64,000 bases of DNA, taken from the NCBI RefSeq assembly GCF_048403405.1, contig NZ_CP183131.1; one strand, 5' to 3'. The notes below the pieces were generated by a model. That model did not search any database. It saw only the letters and a program-made list of their open reading frames with translations, and was not told where the DNA came from. Positions 17,841-52,120 of the stretch are shown here, piece after piece. The translations under genes were made by a program, and so were the position numbers. Numbering within the stretch: the first letter of the stretch is position 1; each line of letters opens with the position of its first letter. Source of the DNA: Escherichia coli (lineage in GTDB: Bacteria; Pseudomonadota; Gammaproteobacteria; Enterobacterales; Enterobacteriaceae).

Positions 17841-17867
17841 AAAGGGGCCGAAAGGCCCCTTTTTTTA
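17841..17867. terminator. convergent terminator between lipoprotein gene and traN
   Basis: GGGGCC-GAAA-GGCCCC with T7 on plus strand and A-tract upstream. Confidence 0.65.
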
Positions 17868-20663
17868 TCCACCACCACCAGTTGGCGCGCCTGTTTGAGG
17901 GTCTATGCTGTTTGTCGCCTCTTTTCGCTTCGCGTCAATATCAATCCCTTCCAACCGCTCCAACGCCCTTTCCTGAGCATTCTTCCGCGTCCCGTCAATA
18001 TTGAAGTCATTCCCTGCTCCAGTCAGCGAGTCGAGATTTATTGAGGCCGGATCAGGGAATTTACCGTTCTGCTGTAATATCCCAAGCCACTCATCCAAAT
18101 TAATTTTGCTCCAATCAATTTCGGCAATTTTATCTAGTGGAATCCCTTCACACTGAGGATTTTTGGGGTCTCCAAAGTTCTGCCCCAATTGAGGGCGAAC
18201 CTGTTCTTGTATAATACGAGAGAGCGGAGAATTGAAGCAGCAATACGCTTCTCTTTTTTCAATACAAGCGCCCAACACCTTAGATTTACAATAAGAGCCT
18301 ACATAGGTGCAATTCTTGAGCGCTCTTTTGGCGTTCATAGTGAACTCTTCTTCCTCGCACTTATAAATCATCTGGATCATCACCATCGCAACGACATAGA
18401 CGGTATATATCGTCATGGCAGTGCTAAGCCATGTTGTCGCAGTCTCCATCATTGCTTCGGCAGCTTGTTCAGATGCTGCGGCAGCCGCCTGCTCTGTTGC
18501 TGCATCTTGGCCTGCTGATTTCATGACATCCATCATCACTTCTTTGACTTGCTCTTTGAGCTGGTCAATGAGTTGATCAACAAACTGCTCTACAGGCTGG
18601 AAGAACGAATCAACAGCACCTGAAACGTTCTCTATATAACTTGTGAACGGTTTTGTGACTTCTGTCCACCCTTGAAGGGCAGGTTCCCTAAGTACCTGAT
18701 AAGCACCTTTAAGCGCATTACCATCAGTCAGCCCCATCACTGCGCCATCGAGCTTTGGAACGGCCATTATTAGGTTCAGATAATCGGCAAGAGATATATT
18801 GGTTGGCTTTTCACAGCAATCAGAAACTCCCCCAACAGCTATCTTGCATTCGCCAGCTTCCCCTGCAAAAGCAGAGCAAATAACGTTTTCATCCCCGGTA
18901 GGATTGTCATCCCCATCTTGGCCTGTGCAGCTCATATCCTGCGTCATGAATTGGGCTGCATTGAGCAACGCAGTAGCGCGAGCAAAATCAGTGCTTTGTG
19001 TTTTGGTCAAATCAAGGCAGTCATCTCCCATGCAGCGTATAGGCCCACCGCACTGGTACTCAGTTTCCTTTTCCAAGGTCGGAACAGAAACATCTGTACC
19101 ACAGTCATAAGTATCCTCGTGGACGTAGCACGTACCAGAACTTCCCTGAGCACCATCAACACATTTGGAACTGATGAAGCCGCACTGAGGGTTTTCTTCA
19201 TATTTCTGACAGCTATCGAGATTCCCGCCCGTGTTTACCGGACAGTGCGTTTCACCTTGAGGGTCTGTCCAGCAGTCCATTTGCCCCTTATAAAAGTCAT
19301 AGTCAGCTTTAACTCGAACCTTTTTGCATAGTTTTGGAATACCAGGCAAAGGTGACGGCTTGAGTTGAGATTCGCAAACTTTGATCCCATTGATGACTGT
19401 GCAGCCCGTAGCATCAGTCGGGTCATCTATACATGTGATCTCGCCTTCCGCAAAACCATCTACAACCCCTTTGGCTGAATCCATGCAGCTCTGTGGAGCC
19501 CACTCATCCTTGGTAATGGCTTTTGATGGGTCATAGCGTAGCTTTATGCGGCCAAAACCCTCACCTGCGCCAGTTACTGAAACGCGGATCTTAAACGTAA
19601 CAACATCACCATCTTTCACATTCTTGAAATAGGGAGTGACATCAATATTAGGGTTTCGCTCCCAACTTGTTGACAATTCACATCGGCCAGCCGTTTCTGG
19701 AGGGAAATTGCCGTCAGGGCCGGACCATACTTTAGTTTCCTGACCTGATTTACCAACCCAAACTTGCATGTAGTCATCCCACTTGGCGTACTCAAGAGTT
19801 GCAGACACTATGGCGTCTGGATTACTGACTTGGACCCGCGTGTATTCCTCATAAATCGAACAGTTGCCACTCCAGTAGTCGTTACCAACTCGGCCAATCC
19901 ACAACTCAGTACAGCCTTCTCCACAAGATTTGAGGTTATATGGACCATCATAGTGCTTCACCACAGAGGCATCGTAGTCATGGACAACCTCACAGTCCGC
20001 GCTTTGATCTACAACACGCTGACACCGTTCATACTCTGGAATGTGGGCGTTGATAGTATTCTGATTGATGGTTGTTTCGGCAGAACAATCCCCAAAGCCA
20101 CCTGCGATGAGGTCCATATCCTCATAGGTCTTTTTGCTTAGATTTAGTACAGGGTCATTACTGAAATCAGGGCGTGATCGATTAGAGGCATCGAGAAGAA
20201 CCTTGTATGCCGCACCAGAGATTGATGGATTAGCACTATTGGCATCACTCCACAGCGACCCTTTTGCATTATTCCCCACGCTGTCCATGTCATCGCCAGA
20301 GTCGTAAATGCCTTGCAGACCGCCCACATCAGGTTTATTGGCATCAGGGAAGTAATAACTATCAGGTTTATTGTTGGTCCCGCTCGTTCCGGGGAATAGA
20401 TCATTGACATTAATCTGACTCCCCCCGTTCATTTGGAATTGACCGTCTTTCAACGTCGGCATAGAGATTGTGCCATCTTGCACAGTCCCCGAGCTCGACT
20501 TGAATGAGTTTGAGAGGTTTTGTCCGAAAGCCTGGGCCTCTTTACCCACCGCTGTGATGTCCTGGTCTTGGCTACCGTTAGCGTAGGAATGTATCGGCAG
20601 CGCAGACATGGTTACTGTCAACAGCGAGGCCACAGCTTTCATAAAGTAATTATGACTTCGCAT
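17865..20663 (-). CDS. traN: mating-pair stabilisation outer-membrane protein TraN
   Basis: Cys-rich 932 aa with signal peptide; position after traU; ORF track 17865..20675, RBS TGGAGAA before MRSHNYF. Confidence 0.85.
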   Translation of the reverse strand: MRSHNYFMKAVASLLTVTMSALPIHSYANGSQDQDITAVGKEAQAFGQNLSNSFKSSSGTVQDGTISMPTLKDGQFQMNGGSQINVNDLFPGTSGTNNKPDSYYFPDANKPDVGGLQGIYDSGDDMDSVGNNAKGSLWSDANSANPSISGAAYKVLLDASNRSRPDFSNDPVLNLSKKTYEDMDLIAGGFGDCSAETTINQNTINAHIPEYERCQRVVDQSADCEVVHDYDASVVKHYDGPYNLKSCGEGCTELWIGRVGNDYWSGNCSIYEEYTRVQVSNPDAIVSATLEYAKWDDYMQVWVGKSGQETKVWSGPDGNFPPETAGRCELSTSWERNPNIDVTPYFKNVKDGDVVTFKIRVSVTGAGEGFGRIKLRYDPSKAITKDEWAPQSCMDSAKGVVDGFAEGEITCIDDPTDATGCTVINGIKVCESQLKPSPLPGIPKLCKKVRVKADYDFYKGQMDCWTDPQGETHCPVNTGGNLDSCQKYEENPQCGFISSKCVDGAQGSSGTCYVHEDTYDCGTDVSVPTLEKETEYQCGGPIRCMGDDCLDLTKTQSTDFARATALLNAAQFMTQDMSCTGQDGDDNPTGDENVICSAFAGEAGECKIAVGGVSDCCEKPTNISLADYLNLIMAVPKLDGAVMGLTDGNALKGAYQVLREPALQGWTEVTKPFTSYIENVSGAVDSFFQPVEQFVDQLIDQLKEQVKEVMMDVMKSAGQDAATEQAAAAASEQAAEAMMETATTWLSTAMTIYTVYVVAMVMIQMIYKCEEEEFTMNAKRALKNCTYVGSYCKSKVLGACIEKREAYCCFNSPLSRIIQEQVRPQLGQNFGDPKNPQCEGIPLDKIAEIDWSKINLDEWLGILQQNGKFPDPASINLDSLTGAGNDFNIDGTRKNAQERALERLEGIDIDAKRKEATNSIDPQTGAPTGGGG

Positions 20664-20778
20664 TGTGTTCTCCATTTCAACCTTCCCATGCTATCTGAGA
20701 AGACAAGGGCCACCTGTACGTGTAGTGGCCCTTTTGGGGCATAATCTAAAATGCCCGTGCAAATTCGTTAGGGTCTGC

Positions 20779-27689: not shown

Positions 27690-27765
27690 GTCTATCCCCT
27701 AAGATTGGATTACTGGATGCTGGGCAGTGTATCCGGGGGAGGGAAATAGACTCGCCTCTGTAATA

Positions 27766-27779
27766 GCCCAATTTGGACA
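27766..27779 (-). promoter_or_regulatory. FlhDC-family activator box (minus-sense TGTCCAAATTGGGC)
   Basis: Plus strand GCCCAATTTGGACA, reverse orientation of the 16105 box; ~80 bp upstream of dsbC. Confidence 0.5.
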
Positions 27780-27837
27780 ATTCCAGCGCGATACAAAAAA
27801 AAGCCCGGTCTGAACCGGGCTTTGAGAGGAATGAACC

Positions 27838-30800
27838 TTAGTTCATGGTAACAGCTTCGGATTTGCCACCAGAGTCATCGACCCCAACCAGAGAGATGGT
27901 CGGCATCGTTTCATAGGTGCCCTTGCTGATAGTCACTCGATCAGAGCTGATGCTCTGCAACTCACCGGCAATGGTCCATTCGTAGGACTTCATGCGGCCA
28001 TCGGTATCTTCGCAGTTCGCATAAACGATCCACGACCCAACGGTCTCTCGTGAGCTCAGGCTACATGCAGGCAACTTGTTCTCTGCCACATTGATGTTCA
28101 CCTCGCCCTCAGCTTCATGCCCCATTTCTGAGGTTATTTTCAGCTTGATGCTGTGCTCACCAGCGCCCAGAGTTGCTCTGCCGTAGTAACCGCTGCTTTC
28201 CAACGGCGTACCATCTACCGAGTAGACGCGAGTCGAAATACGGTCGCGTGGGTGGCCGCCAGAAATGTACGGTCGCAACAGCACATCCAGAGGCTCACGC
28301 TCGTATTTGTTCGAGCCAGAGTATTGCAGGTCGATAGCATAGGGCTCTGCCTGGCCGATCTTGAGCGGTTGCTCGATCACGGTTTCATGGCCGCGAGCAT
28401 CACGGACAGTCACCTTGATGTTGTAATCGCCCGGCTCATTGATCACAAAGGACCGGACAATATCCTGCCGCTGATCCTGAATCACTGCGTCTTCCGGCAA
28501 CTCCCACTCGTAGGTCGGTTCTTCCAGCTTGCCGTTGAAGGCAATTGGCCGCACTGACGCGGTGATCGTCGCAGGAGCCACGTCAGCGTTCTTCCTGACC
28601 TGCATTCCGAAGCTCGGCCATACATACTGCCACACGCGGGAGCGTAGGCTATGCGAGGCTTCTGCACCCTGATCTCGGTATCCTTCGATCCAGGTGGTGT
28701 ACTTCGTTTCTACAGTAGCCTGGTTGAGGTCAGTGTCCGAAGGCACGTACTCAGCAGTATCACCCTGCACAATTGAGCCATCAGGCAGCGTGAAGAACCC
28801 GTTCAGCTTCACGTCCATCCCACGGTAAGGCAGGCTGGTTTCGGCTTTGAACACATACTTCTTACCGGTCTCAATGACTCGCGGCCCTGTCACGTAAGGA
28901 CGGGGGGCCTTCACTGCTCGGAAGTCAACTGCCGTTTTCGCAACTTCATAGGCATAGCCGTCATCAGCCGGTGCAGTGGCAGAGCGCACACGAGCCCACA
29001 GGCGGTATCGGGTTTCTTCATCGCTCGAAAGCGTGATGCTATCCCCTGTCTGCGCGTAGGTTTTGCCACCGTCAGTAGACCACTCAACAATGGCATTGCC
29101 ACCGGAGATTGGCTCATCGTTCAACGTCAGGTTCGCTGTGTACTTGCCTTCACTTCCGACAAACAACGTGGTCGGGCCGATAACAGCAATATCAGGTTTG
29201 TCGTAAGCGACAACACTGACCGCTTCGGTGTACTTTTCCGCACCTGAGTTGACGTTCACCACCTTGGCCCGAACCTGGTACTCCCCCTTGTCGAAGGTCT
29301 TCACAAGCTGATACTTGTATCGATCTTCTGGGATGAACTGCTCCCAGGTTTTACCGTCGTCCTTACTGGTTTCCCACACAACCTGGCCGGTAGCCCGGAG
29401 ATCCTGACGGTCGTCCAAAGATAGCTTGAACACAGCAGTGAACGGAGCTTCACCAGACAACTTGCGAGCCTCCACGCCAGCACCGATGGCACCACCACGA
29501 AGCACTGTCAAGAAGGCAGGTCTGATAGACAACTCTGTGCGGTTGTAACCCTCAACAGGGCTTTCCAGAACAGCCTCAGCAGCGATACGGACGGAGGAAG
29601 TATCCACACCAGACAGGTCTACTGAGAACTGAGCTTCACCGTTCGATGCTTCCGCATAATCAGTGAGCGCAACCGTCTCGTTGTAGGCCTTTTGCTGGAT
29701 CAGGCGTACTTTCCACACCCCCATCGTGTTAGCGTCATAGTCACCATCAGGTTTGTACTGATCACGGATGAGAACCCTAACCGGCAATGCCTGGGTGTCA
29801 ATCGCGGTATCACCTTTAACTTCAACGATAGGACGGATACTGTCAGAAGGTGCAGAGATAGCCCGGTAGACAACCTCAGTCTTCACATCAGGCACCTTGT
29901 TGTAGGCCGCGTTCACCTTGTAGGTGGTCTCCTCCCACAACGCTCGCTCATCGGTATTGATGCGGCGATACACCTTATTGGTGGCACCCCATCCCGGAGT
30001 GAAGGTCTCAGACTCAAGAACATCAGAGTTGCGCGATATGGCAATATCCAGATCAGCTCGTTCAGAGTTGATAATGGCATCACCCAGGTAGTTACCTGTC
30101 ATCGGCACCAAGTAGATGTTGTCTTTGAAGTTGTAGTCGGAGGCTAGTTCAACGGTCGGAGCTGGTGGGTCAACCGCTTCGACATTGAAAGTCTCGTCGT
30201 TCAACGTCACCCGAGTGCCGTTACGGGTGAAAATACTTACCCGCCACCCCAGAGGGTGATCACCGTTCTCGGCCAGGGAACCTGACAACGAAGGAGATTC
30301 CGATAACGGGTCTTGGACCAGTCCATCGGGGATCTGCTGCCACTCGAACAGACAGGTGCGGCTTGCACTGCCAACAGCTTTGTTCGCGGCCTCGTTTTTC
30401 GCACGGTCAGCACTGAGAGTGATTGAACAATCAGGACCTTTGCTCTGCTTGAAGTTCACATCAAAGTCTTCAATGACGCGATTCACCTGAGCAATGTCAT
30501 CAATCGGGGTGTAACCAACAGAGCCATAGGCAGTAGTTACCGTCAGGTTCTGAGAGCCAGACCCAACTTTTACCTTGGAACCGTCACCACTGAACAGGTA
30601 CAGGCTGTATTCGACAGGTTGTTCACCAATGCTCACAGCCTGCCCCACCAGCCCGGCAACTTTCATCCCGTTGTTGTCCTGCGTAGTTTGTTCAGCCTCA
30701 TCCGGAGTTCTGTCCCATTGGAGCAAACACACCGGGTCACGAATTGGGTCTGCGGCCATAGCCACATCCTCTTTCGTGGTGAACCGGCAAGGCACACCCG

Positions 30801-33369
30801 ACTCTGGCAGGGCATAGATTTTCACCGGGTCAATAACCTGGCGAATTGTCCATGATTCAGCCGAGAGCTTGGCCGTCCCTTTCCAGGTATTGATGTCCAC
30901 AACCAAGATGGGTGAGTTCGGCGCGGAGGTCATGACAAGAAGACTGGAAGAGCCGACCACATCAGGAACAGCCGGTTTAACCGGAATGCTCAAACGACCA
31001 CCTGACGCACCGAAATCATGTTGGCTCATGATCCCCATTGTCTGGCCCGGCTCGATACGCACCCCATTCACCACCAGCGGCACTTTCGCATCAGAACGGA
31101 GGGTCGCAAACACGTCGTATGAACCTGTCACGACAGCACCATCACTGAGCGTCAGCGGCTTGGTCTCGATGATCCGCTTGCCATCTGCATGAACAAATTC
31201 ATGAGTGACAGCGGGGACCATAACCTTGCCATCCATCCCATCCGCCAGCATCACCTGACGCGGTTTGTACTCGAAGCCAACCGCCTTTTGAACCGCGTTG
31301 CCTTGTGCGTCCTCACCGGAAACAGTCAGCGTGTAAGATTCCCCTTCCTTCAAAGACGGGAACATTACCGGGTACTCAAGGCGGAATCGACCTTTCGACT
31401 CCTCACGCCAAGACAACTGCACCTTGTCATCGGCTGGGCCTCCGACGAGGGCAATAGAGGTCAGCTTAGGACTCGGGTCGGCAGTATCAGTCAAGGTGAT
31501 TACAACATCATCCAAAGACTGGATTGGTGCTCCATCACTGATCGATACGGTTAGTGTCGGCGCTGAATTATCTATGCTCATAGCATATTGGGAGCCAGTG
31601 AATACCTGCTTAACCTCATTACCGAAAGCATCTTTAGCTACGAGAGATATGCCGGTATATGTGCCCTCTGACAGATTCTCAGCAGAAAATGTGAAAAACC
31701 AATCATTTGTGCTACTACGAAGAACTTCAGTACGAGACAACGGACGTTCTTCGCCAGTCGAGGTTATCGCAGACGCACTTGAGTTGTTAGAAATAACCCA
31801 CTGGTTAACACCCCAACCGTCAAATGAATCAGGCTCACGGAAATGAGCTTTAAAAATCCGCCCATTTCGTTCTAACCCAGCAATTTCAGGAGGGTTAAGG
31901 TCATAGCAGAACGTTGCCCCAATCCGATCAGACGGAAGTTCAGGCTTCCCTTCCGGTCGAGACCAATATCCAGGCCATGAACATGAGCGCCCACTGAACG
32001 ATATATCCGTATCCACTTCTGCATAAGAAGCATTTGCCGGAATTTTAGTAGTAGGCAACCAAGATCCCCATAACTCCTGAGCGTAAGGTCTCGGCTCAAC
32101 ATGAAATCTCAGTTTTTTATAATGGTTAACTGAGCTCATATTAATGGTTTCACCGCGGACCCACTGACCATCATCCCTAAGATATTCAACATACTTACCG
32201 ATGGGAGCCAAGCTAACCGATGGATCAGCTTTCACACTGACGGATGTATTACCAAGAGAGTTCATAACCCAGTCGTAAATAATAAACGACTTAGTTTTTG
32301 TCCCATGTTGCTGGAATACATCAGCTTGCGTCTGCCGATAATCATATGTACCGTCTTCGGCAATGATATTGCCTTCAATACAGTTTTTATAATCACACCA
32401 GTTACCGCTTTGAGCACCGTAAGGTGAAGAAGGATAGGAGTTTGTTTTGGGTATCCGGTAGAGCACCCTGTAGGTATCGGAATAAATGGTCATTCCGTTC
32501 TGATAAGGCGCAAAACCTGATAGGGCCTGACCATTAACCTTAAAAGTTGAGGCCTGCGGGTTCTTAGGGTCATACACTGCTACTGGCTCAGGATTCTCTC
32601 CAGACTTTGCACCTACTGAATCCCAAGCAATAGGATAGGCTATTGACCCTTTGTTCCCTGCTTTATCCAGGGCCTCGAAATGAAGCGTATATAGATCCTC
32701 CCCATTAGGGAACACAGTGCTCCAGTTCAACAACTGGCCTTGGCCGTTGGCGTAATTAACCGAGACAACAGGACTCCTCTTGCCTTTGCTATCTACAGCA
32801 TACGCCTGTATAGAGGAAACCGAAGAACCGGCATCAGATGCAGACACATCTATACCTGAAAATCGGTTAGGACCTCGCAGTAGCGTTCCATCAGAAAGCG
32901 CCCGGTTCCATTCCCCTTTTACTGTCACGTTTGCCAAACTTGGCGCTGTCGTATCGACTTGAAGCGGGTATTCATCAGTCTGAACGGAACTTCCGTCTGA
33001 CGCCAGTATTTCGGCCCTTAGTTTGTAGACTCCCTCGGAAGGAGCCGGTAGTTGAAGTTCCGCACCATAGTAGGATTTTCCACCCACTGTGATGCGATCA
33101 GTAGCCCCAAGAAGGTGGCTGGTCGCTGTCGAAACCACTGTTCCATCCGACCGAATCACCGAAATCTTTACCTTTCGGTCGATACCGGCACTCAAGGCAA
33201 ACGAGATATTGCCCGTTGGGTTGGCATAGTTGGCATTCGGAGTCAGAGACCGTTGCGTACCATCTGGAGCCTTAAAGGTGTATTCCAGCAGCTCTGCATG
33301 AGCAGCACCAGCGGTAAGAACCGCCAGAGCCCCAAGCATCGCCGGAATTTTAGGCTTGAAATTGATCAT
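27838..33369 (-). CDS. giant secreted repetitive protein (1843 aa) in the T4SS cluster
   Basis: ORF track 27838..33405; start moved to MINFKP (RBS TGGAGAA); signal peptide ..LTAGAAHA; very long G/T/S/V-rich sequence; Ig-like fold is inference only. Confidence 0.7.
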   Translation of the reverse strand: MINFKPKIPAMLGALAVLTAGAAHAELLEYTFKAPDGTQRSLTPNANYANPTGNISFALSAGIDRKVKISVIRSDGTVVSTATSHLLGATDRITVGGKSYYGAELQLPAPSEGVYKLRAEILASDGSSVQTDEYPLQVDTTAPSLANVTVKGEWNRALSDGTLLRGPNRFSGIDVSASDAGSSVSSIQAYAVDSKGKRSPVVSVNYANGQGQLLNWSTVFPNGEDLYTLHFEALDKAGNKGSIAYPIAWDSVGAKSGENPEPVAVYDPKNPQASTFKVNGQALSGFAPYQNGMTIYSDTYRVLYRIPKTNSYPSSPYGAQSGNWCDYKNCIEGNIIAEDGTYDYRQTQADVFQQHGTKTKSFIIYDWVMNSLGNTSVSVKADPSVSLAPIGKYVEYLRDDGQWVRGETINMSSVNHYKKLRFHVEPRPYAQELWGSWLPTTKIPANASYAEVDTDISFSGRSCSWPGYWSRPEGKPELPSDRIGATFCYDLNPPEIAGLERNGRIFKAHFREPDSFDGWGVNQWVISNNSSASAITSTGEERPLSRTEVLRSSTNDWFFTFSAENLSEGTYTGISLVAKDAFGNEVKQVFTGSQYAMSIDNSAPTLTVSISDGAPIQSLDDVVITLTDTADPSPKLTSIALVGGPADDKVQLSWREESKGRFRLEYPVMFPSLKEGESYTLTVSGEDAQGNAVQKAVGFEYKPRQVMLADGMDGKVMVPAVTHEFVHADGKRIIETKPLTLSDGAVVTGSYDVFATLRSDAKVPLVVNGVRIEPGQTMGIMSQHDFGASGGRLSIPVKPAVPDVVGSSSLLVMTSAPNSPILVVDINTWKGTAKLSAESWTIRQVIDPVKIYALPESGVPCRFTTKEDVAMAADPIRDPVCLLQWDRTPDEAEQTTQDNNGMKVAGLVGQAVSIGEQPVEYSLYLFSGDGSKVKVGSGSQNLTVTTAYGSVGYTPIDDIAQVNRVIEDFDVNFKQSKGPDCSITLSADRAKNEAANKAVGSASRTCLFEWQQIPDGLVQDPLSESPSLSGSLAENGDHPLGWRVSIFTRNGTRVTLNDETFNVEAVDPPAPTVELASDYNFKDNIYLVPMTGNYLGDAIINSERADLDIAISRNSDVLESETFTPGWGATNKVYRRINTDERALWEETTYKVNAAYNKVPDVKTEVVYRAISAPSDSIRPIVEVKGDTAIDTQALPVRVLIRDQYKPDGDYDANTMGVWKVRLIQQKAYNETVALTDYAEASNGEAQFSVDLSGVDTSSVRIAAEAVLESPVEGYNRTELSIRPAFLTVLRGGAIGAGVEARKLSGEAPFTAVFKLSLDDRQDLRATGQVVWETSKDDGKTWEQFIPEDRYKYQLVKTFDKGEYQVRAKVVNVNSGAEKYTEAVSVVAYDKPDIAVIGPTTLFVGSEGKYTANLTLNDEPISGGNAIVEWSTDGGKTYAQTGDSITLSSDEETRYRLWARVRSATAPADDGYAYEVAKTAVDFRAVKAPRPYVTGPRVIETGKKYVFKAETSLPYRGMDVKLNGFFTLPDGSIVQGDTAEYVPSDTDLNQATVETKYTTWIEGYRDQGAEASHSLRSRVWQYVWPSFGMQVRKNADVAPATITASVRPIAFNGKLEEPTYEWELPEDAVIQDQRQDIVRSFVINEPGDYNIKVTVRDARGHETVIEQPLKIGQAEPYAIDLQYSGSNKYEREPLDVLLRPYISGGHPRDRISTRVYSVDGTPLESSGYYGRATLGAGEHSIKLKITSEMGHEAEGEVNINVAENKLPACSLSSRETVGSWIVYANCEDTDGRMKSYEWTIAGELQSISSDRVTISKGTYETMPTISLVGVDDSGGKSEAVTMN

Positions 33370-33502
33370 CGCATTCTCCATTCGTTTTGAGTTACAAGAA
33401 CCCAATGCTGGAGGTTACGGGAGGGAGTGCATAAACATGGGCTGTGGAAGTGCCCTTTTTGAGCAAATAAGGAAATAGTTGGAATTTGTTATGACTGGAC
33501 TT

Positions 33503-33538
33503 TTTGCCAAAAAATAAGGGCAGCTTTTAGGCTGCCCC
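33503..33538 (-). terminator. intrinsic terminator after pilin gene traA
   Basis: Minus-sense GGGGCAGC-CUAAAA-GCUGCCC followed by UUAUUUUUUGG. Confidence 0.7.
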
Positions 33539-33569
33539 TATCACCCGTTGATTAACGGCAAGGTGTCTT

Positions 33570-38399: not shown

Positions 38400-38415
38400 G
38401 GCCCATTTTGGGCAC
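38400..38415. promoter_or_regulatory. FlhDC-family activator box GGCCCATTTTGGGCAC
   Basis: In the 38325..38504 intergenic region. Confidence 0.5.
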
Positions 38416-47031: not shown

Positions 47032-49223
47032 TGGACCTTTATATCTGCGAGAAGCCTTCTCAGGCCAAAGATTTGGCTGGCGTAATGAAGGCCTCCCAAC
47101 GAGGTGATGGATTTCTCCATGATGGAGGAAACCGCGTTATTACGTGGGCGTTCGGCCACCTGCTGGAATTGTATATGCCAGACGATTATGACGAACGCTA
47201 CAAGTCATGGTCACTGGAGACCCTCCCTATTGCACCAGAGTCATGGCGGTACAACGTTCGCAAGAGTGCGTTCAAACAGTACAAAATTGTTGAGGGACTG
47301 GTCAAAAAGGCGAGCACCATCTACATCTCAACGGACTACGACCGAGAAGGTGAGGCTATCGCCCGTTCGCTTCTGGATCGATTCCGCTACTCTGGCCCTA
47401 TTCGCCGGGTTTGTTTGACGGCTCTCGATGAGTCAAGCATCAAGAAAGCGCTGAACAACGTAAAGGATGGCAAGGATACGGTCTCACTCTACTACGCCGC
47501 ATTGGCACGGCAACGCGCTGACTGGTTGGTAGGCATGAACGTGAGCCGCCTCTACACAGTGCTGGCCCGAGATGTCGGCTTCAACCACACTCTTCACGTT
47601 GGCAGGGTTATCACCCCAACCGTCGCTCTTGTTTGTCAACGGGACCGAGAGATCGCCGGTTTCACCCCCTCACCATACTGGACTCTGGGTGTGAACGTGT
47701 CCGTACAGAATGGACAGTTTGCCGCCCAATGGATACCACCAGAAGAGTGCAGTGACGAGCAAGGCCGGTGCGTCAATAAGGCCTATGCCGAGCAGGTAGC
47801 CTCCCAGGTCAATGGTGCCAATGCTGTTATCAGCAAAGCAGAAACCAAACCAGGTAAAGAGTCAGCCCCCCTCCCCTTCGATCTAACGTCGCTGCAACAA
47901 TACGCAAGCAAACGATGGGGATACACCGCTCAGCAGGTACTGGATGCAGCTCAAGCTCTGTACGAGACGCACAAAGCGACCACCTACCCTCGTACTGATA
48001 GTCGTTATCTACCCGAGAGCCAAAAGGAAGACATTCCGGACATTCTCCAGGCGCTCATTTTGTCCGATCAGAACGTCTCTGGGCTGGTGGCTGGCGCAGA
48101 TCCTCATCGCAAGGCCAGGGTATTCAATGACGCCAAAGTGACCGCGCACCACGCGATCATTCCAACACCGGCCAGAACAGACATCAGTGCCATGTCTGAG
48201 ATCGAGTTCAATCTTTACGACGCCATCCGTCGTTTCTACATCGCGCAGTTCTACAGCGAGTTCGAGTTCACCAAAACCTCCATCGAGGTGCAGTGTGGGC
48301 GTCACCTCTTTGCGGCCTCTGGTAAGACACCTGCCAAACAAGGCTGGAAGGTTTTGTTTGCTTCTGATAGTGAAAGCAGTCCCAAGGACGAGGGGGAAGA
48401 CACCGACGCGCCGGTTGAACAAGAGAAGCTCCCCAGGGTTAGCCAGGGCGAACCCGCTTTGCTTAATGGTGCCGAGCTGGCAAACAAAATGACGCGGCCA
48501 GCACCGCACTTCACCGAAGCCACATTGCTTGCCGCGATGGAGAACATTGCCCGGTTCGTGACTGAGGAGAAGTTCAAGCAAATTCTCAAAGACACAGCCG
48601 GTTTAGGCACTCCAGCAACACGCGCAAGCATCATCCAGGGCGCTGTTGATAAAGGCTACTTCAAACGTCAGAAAAAGGTACTGCTTGCAACTGATAAGGC
48701 TCATGCGCTTATCGCAGTGCTTCCACCAGCCATCAAATCACCCGGCATGACTGCGGCTTGGGAGCAGGAGCTTGAGAAAGTCGCCTCCGGCTCCGGGAAT
48801 ATGTCTGTCTTCATGAAGCAGATTTCCACCTGGATCTGCCAAATGGTTGAGCAGCTCAAAGTGCCCGCACCGGTTCTGACCAAAGAAGGTGGCGCGATGG
48901 CTAAAGCCTTCGAGGGCGCTAAGCCGCCTTCACACGAATGCTTCAACTGCGGTGGAGAGATGCACCGGATCAAAGGGAAGAACGGATTTTTCTGGGGCTG
49001 CCAGAACGAGGCTTGCAAGAAGACGTTCCCAGACAACCGAGGGAAACCCGAGAAGCGTATCGCGGCTGAGGATTGTCCAGACTGCCCAGATTGCGGTAGC
49101 CCGATGCGTCTCAGGAAAGGAAAAGCGCCCGGCAAGAAGCGAGCTTCTAAGTTCTGGGGCTGCACCGCCTATCCCGATTGCAAAGGCACTATGCCCTTCA
49201 AAAAGTCGGACTTTATGGATTGA
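47031..49223 (+). CDS. topB: DNA topoisomerase III
   Basis: Toprim N-terminus, active-site region TYPRTDSRYL, two C-terminal Cys4 zinc ribbons. Confidence 0.9.
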   Translation: MDLYICEKPSQAKDLAGVMKASQRGDGFLHDGGNRVITWAFGHLLELYMPDDYDERYKSWSLETLPIAPESWRYNVRKSAFKQYKIVEGLVKKASTIYISTDYDREGEAIARSLLDRFRYSGPIRRVCLTALDESSIKKALNNVKDGKDTVSLYYAALARQRADWLVGMNVSRLYTVLARDVGFNHTLHVGRVITPTVALVCQRDREIAGFTPSPYWTLGVNVSVQNGQFAAQWIPPEECSDEQGRCVNKAYAEQVASQVNGANAVISKAETKPGKESAPLPFDLTSLQQYASKRWGYTAQQVLDAAQALYETHKATTYPRTDSRYLPESQKEDIPDILQALILSDQNVSGLVAGADPHRKARVFNDAKVTAHHAIIPTPARTDISAMSEIEFNLYDAIRRFYIAQFYSEFEFTKTSIEVQCGRHLFAASGKTPAKQGWKVLFASDSESSPKDEGEDTDAPVEQEKLPRVSQGEPALLNGAELANKMTRPAPHFTEATLLAAMENIARFVTEEKFKQILKDTAGLGTPATRASIIQGAVDKGYFKRQKKVLLATDKAHALIAVLPPAIKSPGMTAAWEQELEKVASGSGNMSVFMKQISTWICQMVEQLKVPAPVLTKEGGAMAKAFEGAKPPSHECFNCGGEMHRIKGKNGFFWGCQNEACKKTFPDNRGKPEKRIAAEDCPDCPDCGSPMRLRKGKAPGKKRASKFWGCTAYPDCKGTMPFKKSDFMD

Positions 49224-49237
49224 TAGAGGAATTAAGT

Positions 49238-49726
49238 ATGTTTGGAACAATCATTTTAACTGCGATGCTCACCACCAGCTCAGCCACTGCCGAAGATGCA
49301 GGGAAGAACATCGCCTCAGGCTTGGCGGCGGCATCCGCCAGCCAAATGGGGCAGGCCGTAATGCCAACTTTAGCTACCAGCTCGGCCATTGCAAAAAGCG
49401 CAGGTAAAGGCATGGTGTCAGGTTTGGCTGCGGCGACTGCCAGCTACATTCCCCAAGACGAGCTGAGCTTTACTCGAAGCTATAAGAACTCTGAGGCTGT
49501 GGATATGGCAAAGGGCCTGGGGACATTGAAAGAAGCGCCTGAGTTTCTCTACGTTGTTACAGACGTAAATGCCAACATGGCGGTCAAATGCAAGCGCGTC
49601 TGGGAGCCTCAATCTCTGGCTTTAAGTCCAGTGATTGTTGAGCTGGTGGAACTACGTAAGACGAACAACAAAGACAGCTACGAACAAGCACTATCCCACC
49701 TCGATTGTTCAATGTTCACAGACTAA
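49238..49726 (+). CDS. secreted protein (162 aa)
   Basis: ORF track 49178..49726; RBS GAGGAA before MFGTIILTAML signal peptide. Confidence 0.5.
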   Translation: MFGTIILTAMLTTSSATAEDAGKNIASGLAAASASQMGQAVMPTLATSSAIAKSAGKGMVSGLAAATASYIPQDELSFTRSYKNSEAVDMAKGLGTLKEAPEFLYVVTDVNANMAVKCKRVWEPQSLALSPVIVELVELRKTNNKDSYEQALSHLDCSMFTD

Positions 49727-49735
49727 AACAATTAA

Positions 49736-49758
49736 GGGGCCGATGGCCCCTAATTTTT
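49736..49758 (+). terminator. intrinsic terminator
   Basis: GGGGCC-GAT-GGCCCC then TAATTTTT. Confidence 0.65.
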
Positions 49759-49817
49759 AATAACCCAATTTCTTTTGATACCTGATTTTCCTACCAAGCA
49801 CAGTTGTCATACACCAT

Positions 49818-50096
49818 TCAATTCACATGGATAGCGAATACTTCAACCGGACAATCTCCAAAGTGCGGGTGCGTTATAACACTCCTTGAGAAGCCACGCC
49901 AAGGGCGAATCTCTATCCTGGACATATCTCCAGCCTTTGGGTAGCCACACTTAACATGGACTTCATCATACTCGCGCCCCTCTAGTCTTTTTATCCAGTA
50001 GTCTGTAACGAGGCGATATTCATCTGGTTTTTCTCCAGATTTGATCTGATCGAAGTAAATCTTTTTTACGGGCAGATGAAGTATTCTCTTTTTCAT
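49818..50096 (-). CDS. ASCH/PUA-like small protein
   Basis: ORF track 49818..50117; RBS AGGTGG before MKKRILHL; ASCH-like pattern is a weak motif-level call. Confidence 0.4.
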   Translation of the reverse strand: MKKRILHLPVKKIYFDQIKSGEKPDEYRLVTDYWIKRLEGREYDEVHVKCGYPKAGDMSRIEIRPWRGFSRSVITHPHFGDCPVEVFAIHVN

Positions 50097-50121
50097 AATC
50101 ACCACCTGATAGCCCATCAGA

Positions 50122-50328
50122 CTATCTAACTATTCGACAAAACATCCCTTTTTCAATTTCTGTCTCTCTCGCCTCATGGGCCAATACAATATCCGCGATA
50201 ACACGAATATTCCCTTCATAGTTGCGAATGGCCGCATCCCTCATCGTGTCTAAAGTGTCCTGACACTTCGCTCGCCTGAATTTAACGAGCCAACTTTGCC
50301 GATCTATCTTGTCCACACCAAATCCCAT
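50122..50328 (-). CDS. hypothetical small protein (68 aa)
   Basis: ORF track. Confidence 0.35.
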   Translation of the reverse strand: MGFGVDKIDRQSWLVKFRRAKCQDTLDTMRDAAIRNYEGNIRVIADIVLAHEARETEIEKGMFCRIVR

Positions 50329-50946
50329 TTAGCGAACCATGTATCCAGCTTTTTTGGCCGCAGCATCAAGCTCGGAGGAGAAGTTAACGTCGGACTTTTC
50401 TGCCGCGTTATAGAGGGCTCCACACTTGGGCCATGAGCGTCCTACCAGTTTCATCGCCAACGCATCCGCCAGCATTTCTCGGATCTGTGTTTCAGCCTCA
50501 CCAAAATCGGCCAGAGTTTCGTCTATGCCCGACTCTTCCATCAGCTCGATGAGCTGTGGTTGTTTGAGCCAGACGCCTGTTTGCATTTCCAACTGATCTC
50601 TTGCATCGGCCACCAATTGGCGTTCAAGGGTTACGCCATTCACGGTCTTAACAAATTGCTTTGGCTGACGCTTTACCTTTTTTGGCCTGGACACATCAGA
50701 GATAACCGTCACCGGCTTCCCACGCAGTTCACGCGGCAACGGTCCACTTAGCCCCAGAACTAAGCGACGAGCGTACTCATGCTCGTATGGTTTCAACCCT
50801 CGACCTTCACGGTACATTTCAGTATCCACCAGCAGATCACCGCGCAGCCTCGCATTTTTCCGCACTTGTTCGGACAAGACCGATTTACCCTTCCCGCTGG
50901 CTCCCATTACGAGCGAGTGAGATTCTACTTTGTTATCAAAAAACAT
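50329..50946 (-). CDS. P-loop NTPase / kinase-like protein
   Basis: N-terminal Walker A GASGKGKS. Confidence 0.55.
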   Translation of the reverse strand: MFFDNKVESHSLVMGASGKGKSVLSEQVRKNARLRGDLLVDTEMYREGRGLKPYEHEYARRLVLGLSGPLPRELRGKPVTVISDVSRPKKVKRQPKQFVKTVNGVTLERQLVADARDQLEMQTGVWLKQPQLIELMEESGIDETLADFGEAETQIREMLADALAMKLVGRSWPKCGALYNAAEKSDVNFSSELDAAAKKAGYMVR

Positions 50947-51039
50947 AATTCCGCCCCCAAGGAGGTGTTGCTATAAAACATGGTTTGAACATCCGTATTT
51001 TCACGGCAATAACCGCCGGATAATGCAAGACTCCCAAAC

Positions 51040-51258
51040 CTAAATAGGTCTCCAGGTGATGACATCGAAGTCATAGCTGACTTCCGAGTTGTCGTCCGCC
51101 GTTCGCCACGAACAATCATCTTCCTGAACATGGATCAAGTCGTACTCAACAATTTTGCCCGACCAACATCCTTTAAGCTGGCAATGAACAGGCACACCGA
51201 CGACCGGCATCTTGTCGTTGACGCTGATCCACGGTTCTTGCTTTTGATCCAGATCCAC
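51040..51258 (-). CDS. hypothetical small protein (DUF551-like pattern)
   Basis: ORF track; W-x-S-V-x-D-x-x-P ... TWRPI pattern. Confidence 0.35.
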   Translation of the reverse strand: MDLDQKQEPWISVNDKMPVVGVPVHCQLKGCWSGKIVEYDLIHVQEDDCSWRTADDNSEVSYDFDVITWRPI

Positions 51259-51261
51259 CGG

Positions 51262-51525
51262 TTAGTCCTCTATGAACGATTTAATGGATCGCCCATCAAA
51301 AAACAGTTTCCCAGTTCCTGATACCGAATGTACTTCTGGAGCTGCCTTCCCTTTCAGGAGTTTCTGATAGCGCACCGCGTCTTTGAGCTCAGAGATCCTG
51401 ACGCCAATGAGTGTGGCCGTCTCCTCAACTGTTAAAATACGGTCCCAAAAGCTGGTGGCGCTGTTATTGCGCCCACCGATACTCTGGGCAACGCACTCTG
51501 TTCTGGCCGCTTTTCCCTTTGCCAT
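51262..51525 (-). CDS. small HTH DNA-binding protein
   Basis: ORF track 51262..51543; helix-turn-helix-like TVEETATLIGVRISELKDAVR. Confidence 0.45.
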   Translation of the reverse strand: MAKGKAARTECVAQSIGGRNNSATSFWDRILTVEETATLIGVRISELKDAVRYQKLLKGKAAPEVHSVSGTGKLFFDGRSIKSFIED

Positions 51526-52120
51526 TGGCAATGTCCTCTTCATTCTTCTCAGCCCCCAGCTTACTCAGTATTTCAGCTTTTGTAGCGCGATGGCCGCGCA
51601 TTAAAAGAGCATTCAGCAGGTATCCAGTGAACACCTCTGTACTCGGCATACGGTCAAGCAACTCAACATACTGCTCATCCGTCAAATCATGGATCTCACA
51701 ATATTTTTCCACCGCCTTTTCGTAGGCTTCTGCGTAGCCATGAGTGGAAATCCTGAAAGCAATATCCCCATTGCCGTAGCCTGGCTTTGTGACGAGAAAA
51801 CAAGGCGCGAAGTAGGTTCTCTTCACCCCCATCCGGCTCCGGTTCTCAATGCTGATATAAGCCCTCAGCCCCTCAGCAATGATGTTTGGCCCGGAGTTGC
51901 GTCGCCGCTTACAAGTCTTATTCTGACGCTTCACCTCTTCTGCCTCAGCTTCCCACTTTCGGTCCAAGCTGTAGGCCAGCCGGTGAGCTGTTGCGTAGGA
52001 ATACTCTCTCAAGGAGAAGTATTCCTGCCGGTAATCATCCGCCACCCCAACTGTTCGTGCGACACGGAACCCGACGAAACCGGCGTCATGGGTTCCCTCG
52101 CCGTAGTAAATGACTGCCAT
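51464..52120 (-). CDS. DNA-binding protein with two AP2-like repeats
   Basis: Repeated Y..G.F...EEA..AY-like patterns (REYSYATAHRLAYSLD; GYAEAYEKAVEKY). Confidence 0.4.
   Translation of the reverse strand: MAVIYYGEGTHDAGFVGFRVARTVGVADDYRQEYFSLREYSYATAHRLAYSLDRKWEAEAEEVKRQNKTCKRRRNSGPNIIAEGLRAYISIENRSRMGVKRTYFAPCFLVTKPGYGNGDIAFRISTHGYAEAYEKAVEKYCEIHDLTDEQYVELLDRMPSTEVFTGYLLNALLMRGHRATKAEILSKLGAEKNEEDIANGKGKSGQNRVRCPEYRWAQ

What the first reader, a model, noticed from the sequence alone, without database searches (positions are those of the whole stretch)
27838..33369. Giant 1843-aa secreted repetitive protein between pilin gene traA and dsbC
A 5.5-kb single ORF with a signal peptide and very long G/T/S/V-rich sequence sits in the middle of the mating-pair gene cluster, separated from traA by a strong terminator and with no activator box of its own found. 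An adhesin-like surface protein co-located with pilus genes could mediate donor-recipient contact or surface exclusion. I cannot identify it from sequence.
Basis: partly seen in the sequence, partly recalled or inferred. Interest (0 to 1): 0.6.

Follow-up and report, generated by a model that had tools for sequence, protein, structure and literature searches.

The report
Known IncC secreted Ig-like conjugation protein
The 5.5-kb gene is real, but it is the already catalogued IncC-plasmid backbone gene orf1847 (vcrx076), a secreted 200-kDa chain of Ig-like domains that is switched on with the transfer genes and was shown in 2022 to help the plasmid conjugate at 25 °C, so the finding is not new.

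Summary
The ORF exists on the minus strand (27838..33369, 1843 aa) between traA and dsbC. It is not unidentified. The DNA is 100% identical to hundreds of IncC plasmids, and the gene is 'orf1847', the type-2 IncC typing marker (vcrx076 in pVCR94). The protein is 1842/1843 identical to pKAZ3 ALG87338.1. The gene does have its own AcaCD activator box (33442-33470; ChIP-exo and transcription-start data in Carraro 2014). The protein has no sequence repeats; AlphaFold predicts β structure throughout, matching Ig-like domain arrays. A surface-exclusion role is unlikely, because IncC exclusion maps to sfx and TraN. My additions: residues 5-812 are homologous to IncHI RSP2 and residues 837-1834 to IncHI RSP, so the IncC protein is a one-chain version of that interacting pair. 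Residues ~140-605 form a swappable cassette with at least 9 deep classes; this cassette is the orf1832/orf1847 difference. The C-terminal ~1100-aa module defines a large family that sits at the same pilin–dsbC locus. Verdict: already known, with low interest.

The parts
27838..33369 (-). CDS of the 1843-aa Ig-like protein (orf1847 / vcrx076 / WP_000606833.1), stop codon included. The alternative upstream ATG at 33381 gives the 1847 codons behind the name 'orf1847'.
   Evidence: ORF and translation; 100% DNA identity to IncC plasmids. RefSeq CDS of 5532 nt in p39R861-4; 1842/1843 identical to pKAZ3 ALG87338.1.
33295..33369 (-). Sec-type signal peptide, aa 1-25 (MINFKPKIPAMLGALAVLTAGAAHA, cleavage predicted after AHA)
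   Evidence: (hydrophobic core, no other TM-like segment) and direct reading. The pKAZ3 protein (1842/1843 identical) was detected in the secretome (PMC8730810).
33376..33379 (-). Shine-Dalgarno GGAG, 6 nt upstream of ATG 33369
   Evidence: Direct reading
33442..33470 (-). AcaCD activator box of the gene's own promoter (TTATTTGCTCAAAAAGGGCACTTCCACAG). The inferred transcription start is near 33405.
   Evidence: The pVCR94 Table S3 motif at 47674-47702 (p = 1.7e-11, ChIP-exo peak 6315, TSS 47738-47740) was mapped onto the window using the identical spacing. The core TGNYCNRAWWGGGC occurs 7 times in the window against 0.23 expected, always on the minus strand.
33507..33542 (-). Intrinsic terminator after traA (12-bp stem, U-tract)
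   Evidence: -25 kcal/mol, z = -3.57, 0 of 200 shuffles as stable
32947..33303 (-). DUF4165 domain (aa 23-141), conserved across the family
   Evidence: PF13752, 4e-58; windowed pairwise identity 0.64-0.67.
31555..32952 (-). Variable cassette (aa ~140-605; includes Big_3_2 at aa 140-251). This is the segment that distinguishes orf1847 (type 2) from orf1832 (type 1). GC is 46% against 54% downstream.
   Evidence: type 1 vs type 2 identity is ~21% here but 94-100% in the flanks; at least 9 deep classes, shuffled relative to the rest of the protein. GC dip.
31234..31704 (-). Big_3_3 bacterial Ig-like domain (aa 556-712)
   Evidence: PF13750, 1.4e-58
30934..33357 (-). RSP2-like N-terminal half (aa 5-812)
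   Evidence: BLASTP against the 794-aa IncHI1 RSP2-type protein, aligned almost end to end, 26% identity, E = 2e-55; published RSP2 domain layout.
27868..30861 (-). RSP-like conserved C-terminal module (aa 837-1834), β structure throughout, with conserved Cys pairs 861/881, 981/1006 and 1769/1786 and a weak PKD-like match at aa 1601-1663
   Evidence: BLASTP against IncHI RSP, 24% identity, E = 8e-66; 592 representative clusters; the module ends within 30 aa of the protein end in 143 of 149. AF2 pLDDT 87.4. PKD i-E 0.002.
27792..27823 (-). Intrinsic terminator directly after the giant ORF (10-bp GC-rich stem plus T8)
27756..27784 (-). AcaCD box of the next operon (dsbC-traC...). It shows that the downstream tra genes have their own promoter.

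Best explanation
Identity (near certain). This is the IncC plasmid backbone gene known as orf1847 (type-2 allele; vcrx076 in pVCR94; ALG87338.1 in pKAZ3). It is a monocistronic, AcaCD-activated gene between the pilin gene traA and dsbC.

Mechanism (partly shown elsewhere, partly inferred).
1. The master activator AcaCD turns the gene on together with the transfer genes.
2. The 200-kDa precursor is exported by Sec, its five close Cys pairs form disulfides in the periplasm, and it reaches the cell exterior.
3. By analogy with its IncHI homologues RSP and RSP2, release probably depends on the plasmid's own F/H-type pilus-assembly machinery. The protein would then stay associated with the conjugative pilus or cell surface.
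4. It is a long chain of roughly 18-20 β-sandwich domains (my estimate from domain size, not a count). I propose that the conserved C-terminal ~1000-1100 residues are the module that docks to, or is exported with, the conserved pilus apparatus.
5. I propose that the N-terminal part, especially the swappable cassette at aa ~140-605, is the exposed contact-making head.
6. The net effect is to stabilise donor-recipient contacts where they are fragile (liquid, about 25 °C). It is dispensable at 37 °C.
For: Identity:
- 100% DNA identity over 5568 nt to many IncC plasmids; 940 records match.
- Same gene order as p39R861-4 and pKAZ3.
- 1842/1843 aa identical to ALG87338.1.
- 1847 codons from ATG 33381, and the type-1 allele is 1828+4 codons. 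The orf1832/orf1847 nomenclature is in PMC6872532.

Regulation:
- pVCR94 vcrx076 has its own AcaCD site, ChIP-exo peak and TSS. RNA-seq values are 380 in wild type, 3 in ΔacaCD and 2495 when complemented.
- The same box is in the window.
- Terminators lie on both sides of the gene.

Export and function:
- Signal peptide, paired Cys, pI 4.9, no TM segment.
- The protein is in the cell-free secretome. The knockout has no effect at 37 °C, a strong effect at 25 °C in liquid, and no motility effect (PMC8730810).

Homology:
- aa 5-812 match RSP2 (E = 2e-55) and aa 837-1834 match RSP (E = 8e-66).
- R27 RSP and RSP2 co-precipitate and bind pili and flagella, RSP2 export needs RSP, and export needs TrhH/TrhA/TrhC. 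Δrsp abolishes R27 transfer.

Comparative:
- The gene sits right after the pilin gene in relatives down to 29% identity (L005, L013, L014); dsbC follows it in L013 and L014, while the L005 contig ends at the gene. One relative carries a 4500-aa cadherin-repeat N-terminus.
- The C-terminal module is end-anchored in 143 of 149 representatives, while N-termini vary.

Structure:
- Confident models with β structure throughout (pLDDT 87 and 85) that match only Ig/FnIII arrays, including bacterial adhesins and S-layer proteins.
Against: - The functional evidence for the IncC protein rests on one study and one plasmid. The section I read reports P = 0.042 and describes no complementation.
- pKAZ3 also carries a transposase gene between this gene and dsbC.
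- A systematic study of pMS6198A at 37 °C scored the gene as not needed for conjugation (cited).
- Natural IncC plasmids lacking or interrupting the gene exist ([H9], 14).
- T4SS-dependent export, pilus binding and any recipient contact have not been shown for the IncC protein. Unlike RSP, it did not change motility.
- In one distant relative (L004) two tandem copies lie with no tra gene within 8 kb, so linkage to conjugation genes is not universal.
- The assignment of roles to the C-terminal module and the variable head is my inference from conservation patterns only.
Confidence: 0.6

Rival explanations
1. Surface (or entry) exclusion factor: the protein on a plasmid-bearing cell prevents redundant mating with other IncC donors.
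For: The only support is its location among the mating-pair genes and its extracellular nature.
Against: A TraDIS screen plus genetics showed that sfx (vcrx085) is necessary and sufficient for the exclusion not due to eexC, and that TraN sets the specificity (PMC11493245). Sfx is expressed constitutively, as suits a recipient-side exclusion factor, whereas this gene is nearly silent without AcaCD (3 vs 2495). Its knockout lowers donor transfer.
Confidence: 0.03
2. Host-benefit cargo: an adhesin or biofilm factor for surfaces or hosts that merely sits at a permissive site (the equivalent of SXT/R391 hotspot 2), with any conjugation effect an indirect result of aggregation.
For: In SXT/R391 ICEs the traA-s054(dsbC) junction is variable-cargo hotspot 2 (PMC2791158). 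The gene is self-contained, with its own promoter and terminators. It is dispensable at 37 °C and naturally lost in some plasmids. L004 copies are not next to tra genes. Structural neighbours include adhesins and S-layer proteins.
Against: The promoter is AcaCD-dependent, so the gene is co-regulated with transfer. The same locus, pilin-giant-dsbC, is kept in relatives at 29-36% identity, which is not how random cargo behaves. The homologues RSP and RSP2 bind the conjugative pilus and need T4SS components for export.
Confidence: 0.17
3. Pilus stabiliser or shield: the protein coats or braces the H/F-type pilus without contacting recipients. It would, for example, stabilise pili at low temperature or mask them from pilus-specific phages, and the variable cassette would reflect antigenic or phage-driven diversification.
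For: Hüttener et al. suggest that pilus binding by RSP/RSP2 may stabilise the pilus. The phenotype depends on temperature. The deep cassette polymorphism is also what evasion of phages or predators could produce. The C-terminal module is conserved, like the apparatus it would bind.
Against: Within a cassette class the variable region is about as conserved as the rest of the protein (for example 0.90 vs 0.85, 0.73 vs 0.71). This points to old alleles moved by recombination, not a fast arms race. A relative with a cadherin-repeat N-terminus suggests adhesion. There are no data on phage sensitivity.
Confidence: 0.15
4. Functionally decaying or neutral backbone passenger with no significant role.
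For: It is not required at 37 °C, is lost or IS-interrupted in some plasmids, and the published phenotype has modest statistics.
Against: An intact 5.5-kb ORF is kept at 100% identity in hundreds of plasmids. Protein length is conserved at 1805-1874 aa down to 29% identity. There are 592 representative clusters for the C-terminal module. Induction is strong and regulated. The protein is abundant enough to be seen on SDS-PAGE of secretomes.
Confidence: 0.05

Closest known systems
orf1847 / orf1832 of IncC plasmids (vcrx076 of pVCR94; MS6198_A094 of pMS6198A; ALG87338.1 of pKAZ3)
   Same: It is the same gene. DNA is 100% identical to type-2 IncC plasmids and the protein is 1842/1843 identical to ALG87338.1. 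Position, length, AcaCD box and terminators all match.
   Different: Nothing of substance. The name orf1847 counts from an upstream ATG that lacks a Shine-Dalgarno sequence; the likely product is 1843 aa. The type-1 allele orf1832 differs almost only in aa ~111-647, where identity is ~21%.
RSP (R0009) of IncHI1 plasmid R27, annotated 'IncHI-type conjugal transfer protein RSP'
   Same: Homologous over ~1000 residues: ours 837-1834 match RSP 372-1405 (24% identity, E = 8e-66). Both have a Sec signal peptide, are encoded among MOBH/MPF_F transfer genes, are secreted, and promote conjugation in liquid at 25 °C.
   Different: RSP is 1432 aa and lacks the DUF4165/Big_3_2/variable-cassette N-terminal half. 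Loss of RSP abolishes R27 transfer and restores motility, whereas the IncC knockout has no motility effect and shows a defect only at 25 °C. T4SS-dependent export and pilus/flagellum binding are shown only for RSP.
RSP2 (R0055) of R27
   Same: It has the same architecture as our aa 1-812 (signal peptide, DUF4165, Big, Big_3_3) and aligns almost end to end (26% identity, E = 2e-55).
   Different: RSP2 is a separate 794-aa protein that binds RSP and needs RSP for export. In IncC the two parts are one polypeptide. That fusion/fission reading is my inference; I did not see it stated in the papers I read.
TraN, the F-type mating-pair stabilisation adhesin
   Same: The proposed role is the same: an exposed donor protein that stabilises mating pairs, with allelic variants. 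Both genes have their own AcaCD box here (traN at 17865..20675, box at 20728).
   Different: There is no sequence relationship. TraN is an outer-membrane Cys-rich protein that is essential for transfer. This protein is a released Ig-like chain and is conditionally dispensable.
Giant fibrillar adhesins (T1SS SiiE, LapA/Lap, BapA; T5SS intimin/invasin)
   Same: Long strings of Ig-like β-sandwich domains, with structural matches to SiiE and Lap repeat fragments. One family member carries cadherin-like repeats.
   Different: It has an N-terminal Sec signal peptide instead of a C-terminal T1SS signal. No RTX repeats, no neighbouring ABC/MFP genes, no β-barrel or LysM anchor, and no tandem sequence repeats.

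Membership tests
IncC backbone gene orf1847 (type-2 allele) / vcrx076 | Located between traA and dsbC in an IncC (MOBH, MPF_F) transfer region | tested here: met
   gene order traB-traV-traA-[gene]-dsbC-traC, identical to p39R861-4, which is typed IncC.
IncC backbone gene orf1847 (type-2 allele) / vcrx076 | Near-identity to the type-2 allele, and divergence from the type-1 allele orf1832 in the N-proximal segment | tested here: met
   100% over 5568 nt to many IncC plasmids, while type-1 plasmids cover only 75% at 96.5%; the difference is confined to aa ~111-647; 1847 codons from ATG 33381. The type-2 reference pR55 itself was not compared directly.
IncC backbone gene orf1847 (type-2 allele) / vcrx076 | Own AcaCD-dependent promoter | tested here: met
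   The box sequence is present at 33442-33470 with the published spacing. AcaCD binding and induction come from the literature on pVCR94 and were not measured here.
Plasmid-encoded Big proteins of MOBH plasmids (RSP/RSP2 family) | Sequence homology to RSP and/or RSP2 | tested here: met
   (RSP, E = 8e-66). (RSP2-type, E = 2e-55); about 2000-2700 further plasmid records match at <60% identity, and the listed examples are IncHI-sized records, many annotated rsp.
Plasmid-encoded Big proteins of MOBH plasmids (RSP/RSP2 family) | Big (Ig-like) domain(s), with DUF4165 in RSP2-type members | tested here: met
   DUF4165 4e-58, Big_3_2 1e-20, Big_3_3 1e-58.
Plasmid-encoded Big proteins of MOBH plasmids (RSP/RSP2 family) | Released to the cell exterior / found in the secretome | not testable with these tools
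   A signal peptide is predicted. Secretome detection by LC-MS/MS is published for a protein identical at 1842 of 1843 residues.
Plasmid-encoded Big proteins of MOBH plasmids (RSP/RSP2 family) | Export depends on the plasmid T4SS, and the protein binds the conjugative pilus/flagella | not testable with these tools
   Shown for R27 RSP/RSP2 only. For the IncC protein no motility effect was seen.
Plasmid-encoded Big proteins of MOBH plasmids (RSP/RSP2 family) | Promotes conjugation at environmental temperature | not testable with these tools
   Published for pKAZ3: defect at 25 °C and none at 37 °C, in liquid.
Type I-secreted giant RTX adhesins (SiiE, LapA, BapA) | No N-terminal Sec signal; C-terminal T1SS signal/RTX repeats; adjacent ABC transporter, MFP and OMP genes; tandem near-identical repeats | tested here: not met
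   A Sec signal peptide is present. There are no RTX or Ca-binding Pfam hits. The neighbours are tra genes. There are no sequence repeats.
Inverse autotransporters (intimin/invasin) and other T5SS Big adhesins | Outer-membrane β-barrel translocator (± LysM) joined to the Ig-like passenger | tested here: not met
   There are no such Pfam domains. Fold searches with both AF2 models return only β-sandwich (Ig/FnIII-type) matches; no barrel fold appeared.
Surface exclusion factors (TraT, Sfx) | Necessary and sufficient in the recipient for exclusion of related plasmids | not testable with these tools
   The literature assigns this role to sfx (vcrx085) and eexC in IncC. This gene did not emerge from that screen.
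Anti-phage defence or phage-derived protein | Match to PADLOC or PHROGs models | tested here: not met
   no family matched.

The most novel reading that the evidence does not exclude
The protein may be a modular, pilus-associated adhesin with three features not described in the papers I read.
(i) It is a natural single-chain fusion of the two IncHI proteins RSP2 (head) and RSP (stalk), which in R27 must bind each other.
(ii) Its conserved ~1100-aa C-terminal module is a widespread 'adaptor' that couples very different N-terminal heads (DUF4165/Big, cadherin-like repeats, others) to MOBH/MPF_F conjugative pili.
(iii) The aa ~140-605 cassette occurs in at least 9 ancient classes, is shuffled by recombination and is sometimes present as two tandem paralogues. 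It would determine which recipients or surfaces the donor engages. [quoted passage not shown]
Probability: 0.3. Interest if true: 0.55.

Novelty: already known. Interest (0 to 1): 0.2.

Why it matters
IncC plasmids are major carriers of carbapenemase and other multidrug-resistance genes across Enterobacterales, Vibrio and Aeromonas. This protein is an exposed, plasmid-specific component that helps transfer at environmental temperature. It has already been proposed, by analogy with RSP, as a target for antibodies or nanobodies (PMC11268884).

The finding itself adds nothing new. [quoted passage not shown] These are the swappable head cassette, the relation to RSP2 plus RSP, and the large family at the pilin-dsbC locus. 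They point to a testable specificity determinant for mating in liquid and in cool environments.

Tried and rejected
- NCBIfam, PHROGs and PADLOC scans of the whole protein gave no family.
- A PDB sequence search gave no hit at E <= 1.
- Rfam found nothing in the window.
- Tandem-repeat and self-BLAST searches for the claimed repetitiveness were negative.
- The simple terminator scan missed the traA terminator, which I confirmed by folding instead.
I used the protein alignment instead.
- One relative (P0075) could not be located on any contig.
- I did not run the costly genome contigs or metagenome scans, because identity was already settled. Absence from every SXT/R391 ICE is therefore not proven. 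The literature shows only that the traA-s054 junction is variable hotspot 2, not a conserved giant gene.
- I considered and rejected T1SS adhesin, inverse autotransporter, surface exclusion, lipoprotein (no Cys after the signal peptide) and defence-system readings.
Full report
1. THE OBSERVATION

The window holds one long ORF on the minus strand, 27838..33405 counted from a TTG. In-frame ATGs lie at 33381 (1847 codons) and 33369 (1843 codons). ATG 33369 is the likely start for three reasons:
- GGAG at 33376-33379 precedes it by 6 nt.
- It is the start annotated in RefSeq, pVCR94 and pKAZ3.
- The published transcription start maps to ~33405, which excludes the TTG.

The neighbours are traA (NCBIfam TraA_gammapb, 1e-34), a DsbC-family gene and traC (TIGR02746, 2.5e-204).

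The N-terminus, MINFKPKIPAMLGALAVLTAGAAHA|E, looks like a Sec signal peptide. There is no lipobox Cys and no other hydrophobic segment. The mature protein is 198 kDa with pI 4.9, and its ten Cys fall into five close pairs.

A strong hairpin with a U-tract follows traA. A second terminator follows the giant ORF at 27800-27823.

Two details of the finding do not hold.
- The protein is not repetitive in sequence. Tandem Repeats Finder found no real repeat, self-BLASTP gave no HSP at E <= 10, and window entropy is normal. G+T+S+V is only 32.8%.
- The gene does have its own activator box (section 3).

2. IDENTITY

Megablast of the ORF against PLSDB found 940 plasmid records, nearly all conjugative.
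- 369 records are at >=99% identity, and many match at 100% over the full 5568 nt.
- Hosts include Klebsiella, Escherichia, Salmonella, Citrobacter, Providencia, Proteus, Vibrio and Aeromonas.
- The feature is annotated 'Ig-like domain-containing protein' or 'DUF4165 domain-containing protein'.

The match in p39R861-4 (IncC, MOBH, MPF_F) shows the same gene order, traL-E-K-B-V-A-[gene]-dsbC-traC.

A second group of IncC plasmids matches only 75% of the query, at 96.5% identity in two pieces. Their protein is 1828 aa. Adding the four upstream codons gives 1832 and 1847. These are the names 'orf1832' (type 1) and 'orf1847' (type 2) used to type IncC plasmids (PMC6872532). The window therefore carries the type-2 allele.

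3. REGULATION, FROM THE LITERATURE AND THE WINDOW

Carraro et al. 2014 (PMC4207636) list pVCR94 vcrx076 at 47775..53306, which is 5532 nt, the same length as here. Their data for this gene are:
- an AcaCD motif at 47674-47702 (p = 1.7e-11) under a ChIP-exo peak;
- a transcription start at 47738-47740, with no operon partner;
- RNA-seq values of 380 in wild type, 3 in ΔacaCD and 2495 when complemented.

The intergenic distances are identical in the window: 200 nt from traA and 148 nt to dsbC. Mapping the motif gives 33442-33470, with the sequence TTATTTGCTCAAAAAGGGCACTTCCACAG. It aligns with the boxes mapped in the same way upstream of dsbC, traL and traV.

The core TGNYCNRAWWGGGC, derived from those four sites, occurs 7 times in the window, all on the minus strand, against 0.23 expected. 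The three extra sites (20728, 38401, 56277) are independent of the pattern's derivation.

The gene is thus a self-contained, AcaCD-activated unit. The downstream dsbC operon has its own box and promoter. In a backbone like this one, that argues against polar effects of a knockout.

4. PUBLISHED FUNCTION

Hüttener et al. 2022 (PMC8730810) studied ALG87338.1 of the IncA/C plasmid pKAZ3. It is a 1,843-aa, 200.75-kDa protein with Big_3_2, Big_3_3 and DUF4165 domains. They report:
- Its deletion did not change motility.
- Its deletion did not change conjugation at 37 °C.
- Its deletion strongly reduced conjugation at 25 °C in liquid.

I fetched pKAZ3 (KR827392.1). ALG87338.1 lies between traA and dsbC and is 1842/1843 identical to the window protein. 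My computed precursor mass is 200.78 kDa.

The same paper notes that a systematic study of pMS6198A at 37 °C scored the orthologue MS6198_A094 as not affecting conjugation.

Some natural IncC plasmids lack the gene or carry an IS in it (hit H9).

Surface exclusion in IncC plasmids is explained by sfx (vcrx085), with TraN setting specificity (PMC11493245).

5. ANATOMY

Pfam finds three strong domains in the first 720 residues: DUF4165 (aa 23-141, 4e-58), Big_3_2 (140-251, 1e-20) and Big_3_3 (556-712, 1e-58). In the remaining 1100 residues it finds only a weak PKD match at aa 1601-1663.

AlphaFold2 with family alignments gave confident models that are β structure throughout:
- aa 700-1843: pLDDT 87.4, pTM 0.40, as expected for beads on a string;
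- aa 26-720: pLDDT 84.6, pTM 0.63.

From domain size I estimate roughly 18-20 β-sandwich domains. This is an inference, not a count.

Fold searches returned no β-barrel match, and I found no LysM, RTX or other anchor or secretion module.

6. RELATIVES

(a) Close family. There are 38 clusters at 90% identity. All are 1805-1874 aa, at 100% down to 29% identity, from Vibrio, Shewanella, Photorhabdus, Xenorhabdus, Enterobacter and metagenomes.

(b) IncHI proteins.
- The C-terminal part, aa 837-1834, aligns with aa 372-1405 of the IncHI protein annotated 'IncHI-type conjugal transfer protein RSP' (24% identity, E = 8e-66).
- The N-terminal part, aa 5-812, aligns almost end to end with the 794-aa RSP2-type protein of an IncHI1A plasmid (26% identity, E = 2e-55).
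- The published RSP2 layout (DUF4165 23-142, Big 143-254, Big_3 537-693) mirrors ours.
- In R27, RSP and RSP2 co-precipitate, RSP2 export depends on RSP, and both bind flagella and conjugative pili.
- RSP release needs TrhC, release of both proteins needs TrhH and the pilin TrhA, and Δrsp abolishes transfer at 25 °C.
- All three proteins start with Sec-type signal peptides.
- The IncC protein therefore looks like a single-chain equivalent of the RSP2+RSP pair. I did not see this stated in the papers I read. The authors say they found the IncA/C proteins by domain annotation, not by sequence similarity.

(c) Wider family. A full HMMER search with aa 700-1843 found 592 representative clusters, 355 of them at E <= 1e-30. 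Among the best 149:
- the module ends within 30 aa of the C-terminus in 143;
- total length ranges up to 5417 aa, the shortest complete-looking members being about 1160 aa;
- only 44 carry a DUF4165-like N-terminal domain.

(d) Synteny.
- In relatives at 29-36% identity (L005, L013, L014) the giant gene directly follows the small pilin-like ORF after traL-E-K-B-V. In L013 and L014 it is followed by dsbC-traC-trhF-traW-traU(-traN); the L005 contig ends at the giant gene.
- The 5417-aa member carries cadherin-like and Big_9 repeats at its N-terminus.
- A Pseudomonas MOBH/MPF_F plasmid has a 2427-aa homologue right after traV.
- The exception is L004, where two tandem copies lie with no tra gene within 8 kb.

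7. THE VARIABLE CASSETTE

Type-1 and type-2 IncC proteins are 94-100% identical except between aa ~111/140 and ~603/647, where identity is ~21%. That stretch, window ~31555-32952, has 46% GC against 54% for the rest of the gene.

Across 37 family members this region falls into at least 9 classes that share only ~20% identity with each other. The classes are uncoupled from the rest of the protein:
- P0005 is 92% identical outside the cassette but 22% inside it.
- P0034 is 31% identical outside but 48% inside.

Within a class the cassette is about as conserved as the flanks (for example 0.90 vs 0.85). The pattern therefore looks like old alleles moved by recombination, not hypermutation.

An element integrated in an Enterobacter hormaechei chromosome carries two tandem paralogues between traA and dsbC. 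They differ mainly in this cassette.

8. MECHANISM

Shown, by others, on an essentially identical protein or on pVCR94:
- AcaCD-dependent expression;
- presence in the secretome;
- a conjugation defect at 25 °C.

Shown here:
- identity with orf1847/vcrx076/ALG87338.1;
- the AcaCD box and both terminators in the window;
- the signal peptide and paired Cys;
- the Ig-like architecture;
- homology to RSP and RSP2;
- conserved synteny;
- the modular conservation pattern.

Inferred:
- Sec export followed by release that depends on the pilus-assembly machinery;
- the conserved C-terminal module acting as the part that engages the pilus or apparatus;
- the variable N-terminal head making contacts that stabilise mating pairs in liquid and cool conditions.

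I give this mechanism about 0.6. The rivals are adhesin cargo with an indirect effect (0.17), pilus stabiliser or shield (0.15), neutral passenger (0.05) and surface exclusion (0.03).

9. COMPARISON AND NOVELTY

The feature is a member, in fact the same gene, of a known and partly characterised IncC backbone locus, and it belongs to the RSP/RSP2 family of plasmid 'Big' proteins. It is not a T1SS RTX adhesin, not an inverse autotransporter, not an exclusion factor and not a defence gene (see the membership table).

In SXT/R391 ICEs the corresponding traA-s054(dsbC) junction is variable hotspot 2 and does not hold a conserved giant gene (PMC2791158). I did not scan all ICEs.

Novelty: already known. 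Interest: 0.2. The residual novel reading is the head cassette as a mating-specificity determinant, the RSP2+RSP fusion, and a widespread C-terminal adaptor module. I give it about 0.3 probability and 0.55 interest if true.

Noticed in passing
window 20728-20741, 38401-38414, 56277-56290 (all minus strand): Three further matches to the AcaCD-box core TGNYCNRAWWGGGC that were not used to derive the pattern. The first lies just upstream of traN (17865..20675). The other two lie upstream of other minus-strand operons. In total there are 7 sites against 0.23 expected, all in the direction of transcription.
   Followed up: partly
L007 (Enterobacter hormaechei chromosome CP042571.1) 2326-7812 and 8001-13448: An IncC-like transfer region integrated in a chromosome carries TWO tandem giant paralogues (1828 and 1815 aa) between traA and dsbC. 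They differ mainly in the aa ~140-605 cassette. This looks like a doubling of 'head' types.
   Followed up: partly
L004 (GCA_041253695.1 contig JBESYN010000093.1) 8001-13517 and 13682-19180: Two tandem family members (1838 and 1832 aa; ~31% identity to ours outside the cassette but 48% within it) lie next to Calx-beta/Lcl_C and subtilase genes, with no tra gene within 8 kb. The family is therefore not always linked to a conjugation cluster.
   Followed up: no
L014 (ENA ERZ650667 NODE_410) 8001-24254; L013 8001-15989: At the same pilin-dsbC locus of distant MOBH/MPF_F elements sit a 5417-aa protein with dozens of Cadherin_4/Cadherin_5/Big_9 repeats and a 2662-aa protein. Both end in the same ~1100-aa C-terminal module as orf1847.
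   Followed up: partly
L011 (pKAZ3 KR827392.1) 8452-9789; plasmid NZ_CP024571.1 (hit H9): pKAZ3, the plasmid used for the published knockout, has a transposase gene inserted between the giant gene and dsbC. Another IncC plasmid has an IS3-family element inside the giant gene, which is a natural knockout.
   Followed up: no
L001 18952-19623 (p39R861-4); from the gene order in L001, about 21.8-22.5 kb on the window minus strand: An EAL-domain protein (putative c-di-GMP phosphodiesterase; vcrx082 in pVCR94) is encoded inside the dsbC-traC-trhF-traW-traU operon. It is also present in the distant relative L013. A c-di-GMP link to motility or adhesion during mating was not examined.
   Followed up: no
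window 31500-33000: GC falls to ~0.45-0.46 against 0.52-0.56 around it. The dip coincides exactly with the type-2-specific cassette and suggests acquisition from a lower-GC donor.
   Followed up: yes
hits H28-H30 (for example NZ_CP023356.1, NZ_CP043208.1): Short 5' fragments of the gene (73-466 nt, 92-100% identity) occur in non-IncC-sized E. coli plasmids next to IS elements. They are probably remnants of IncC backbone.
   Followed up: no
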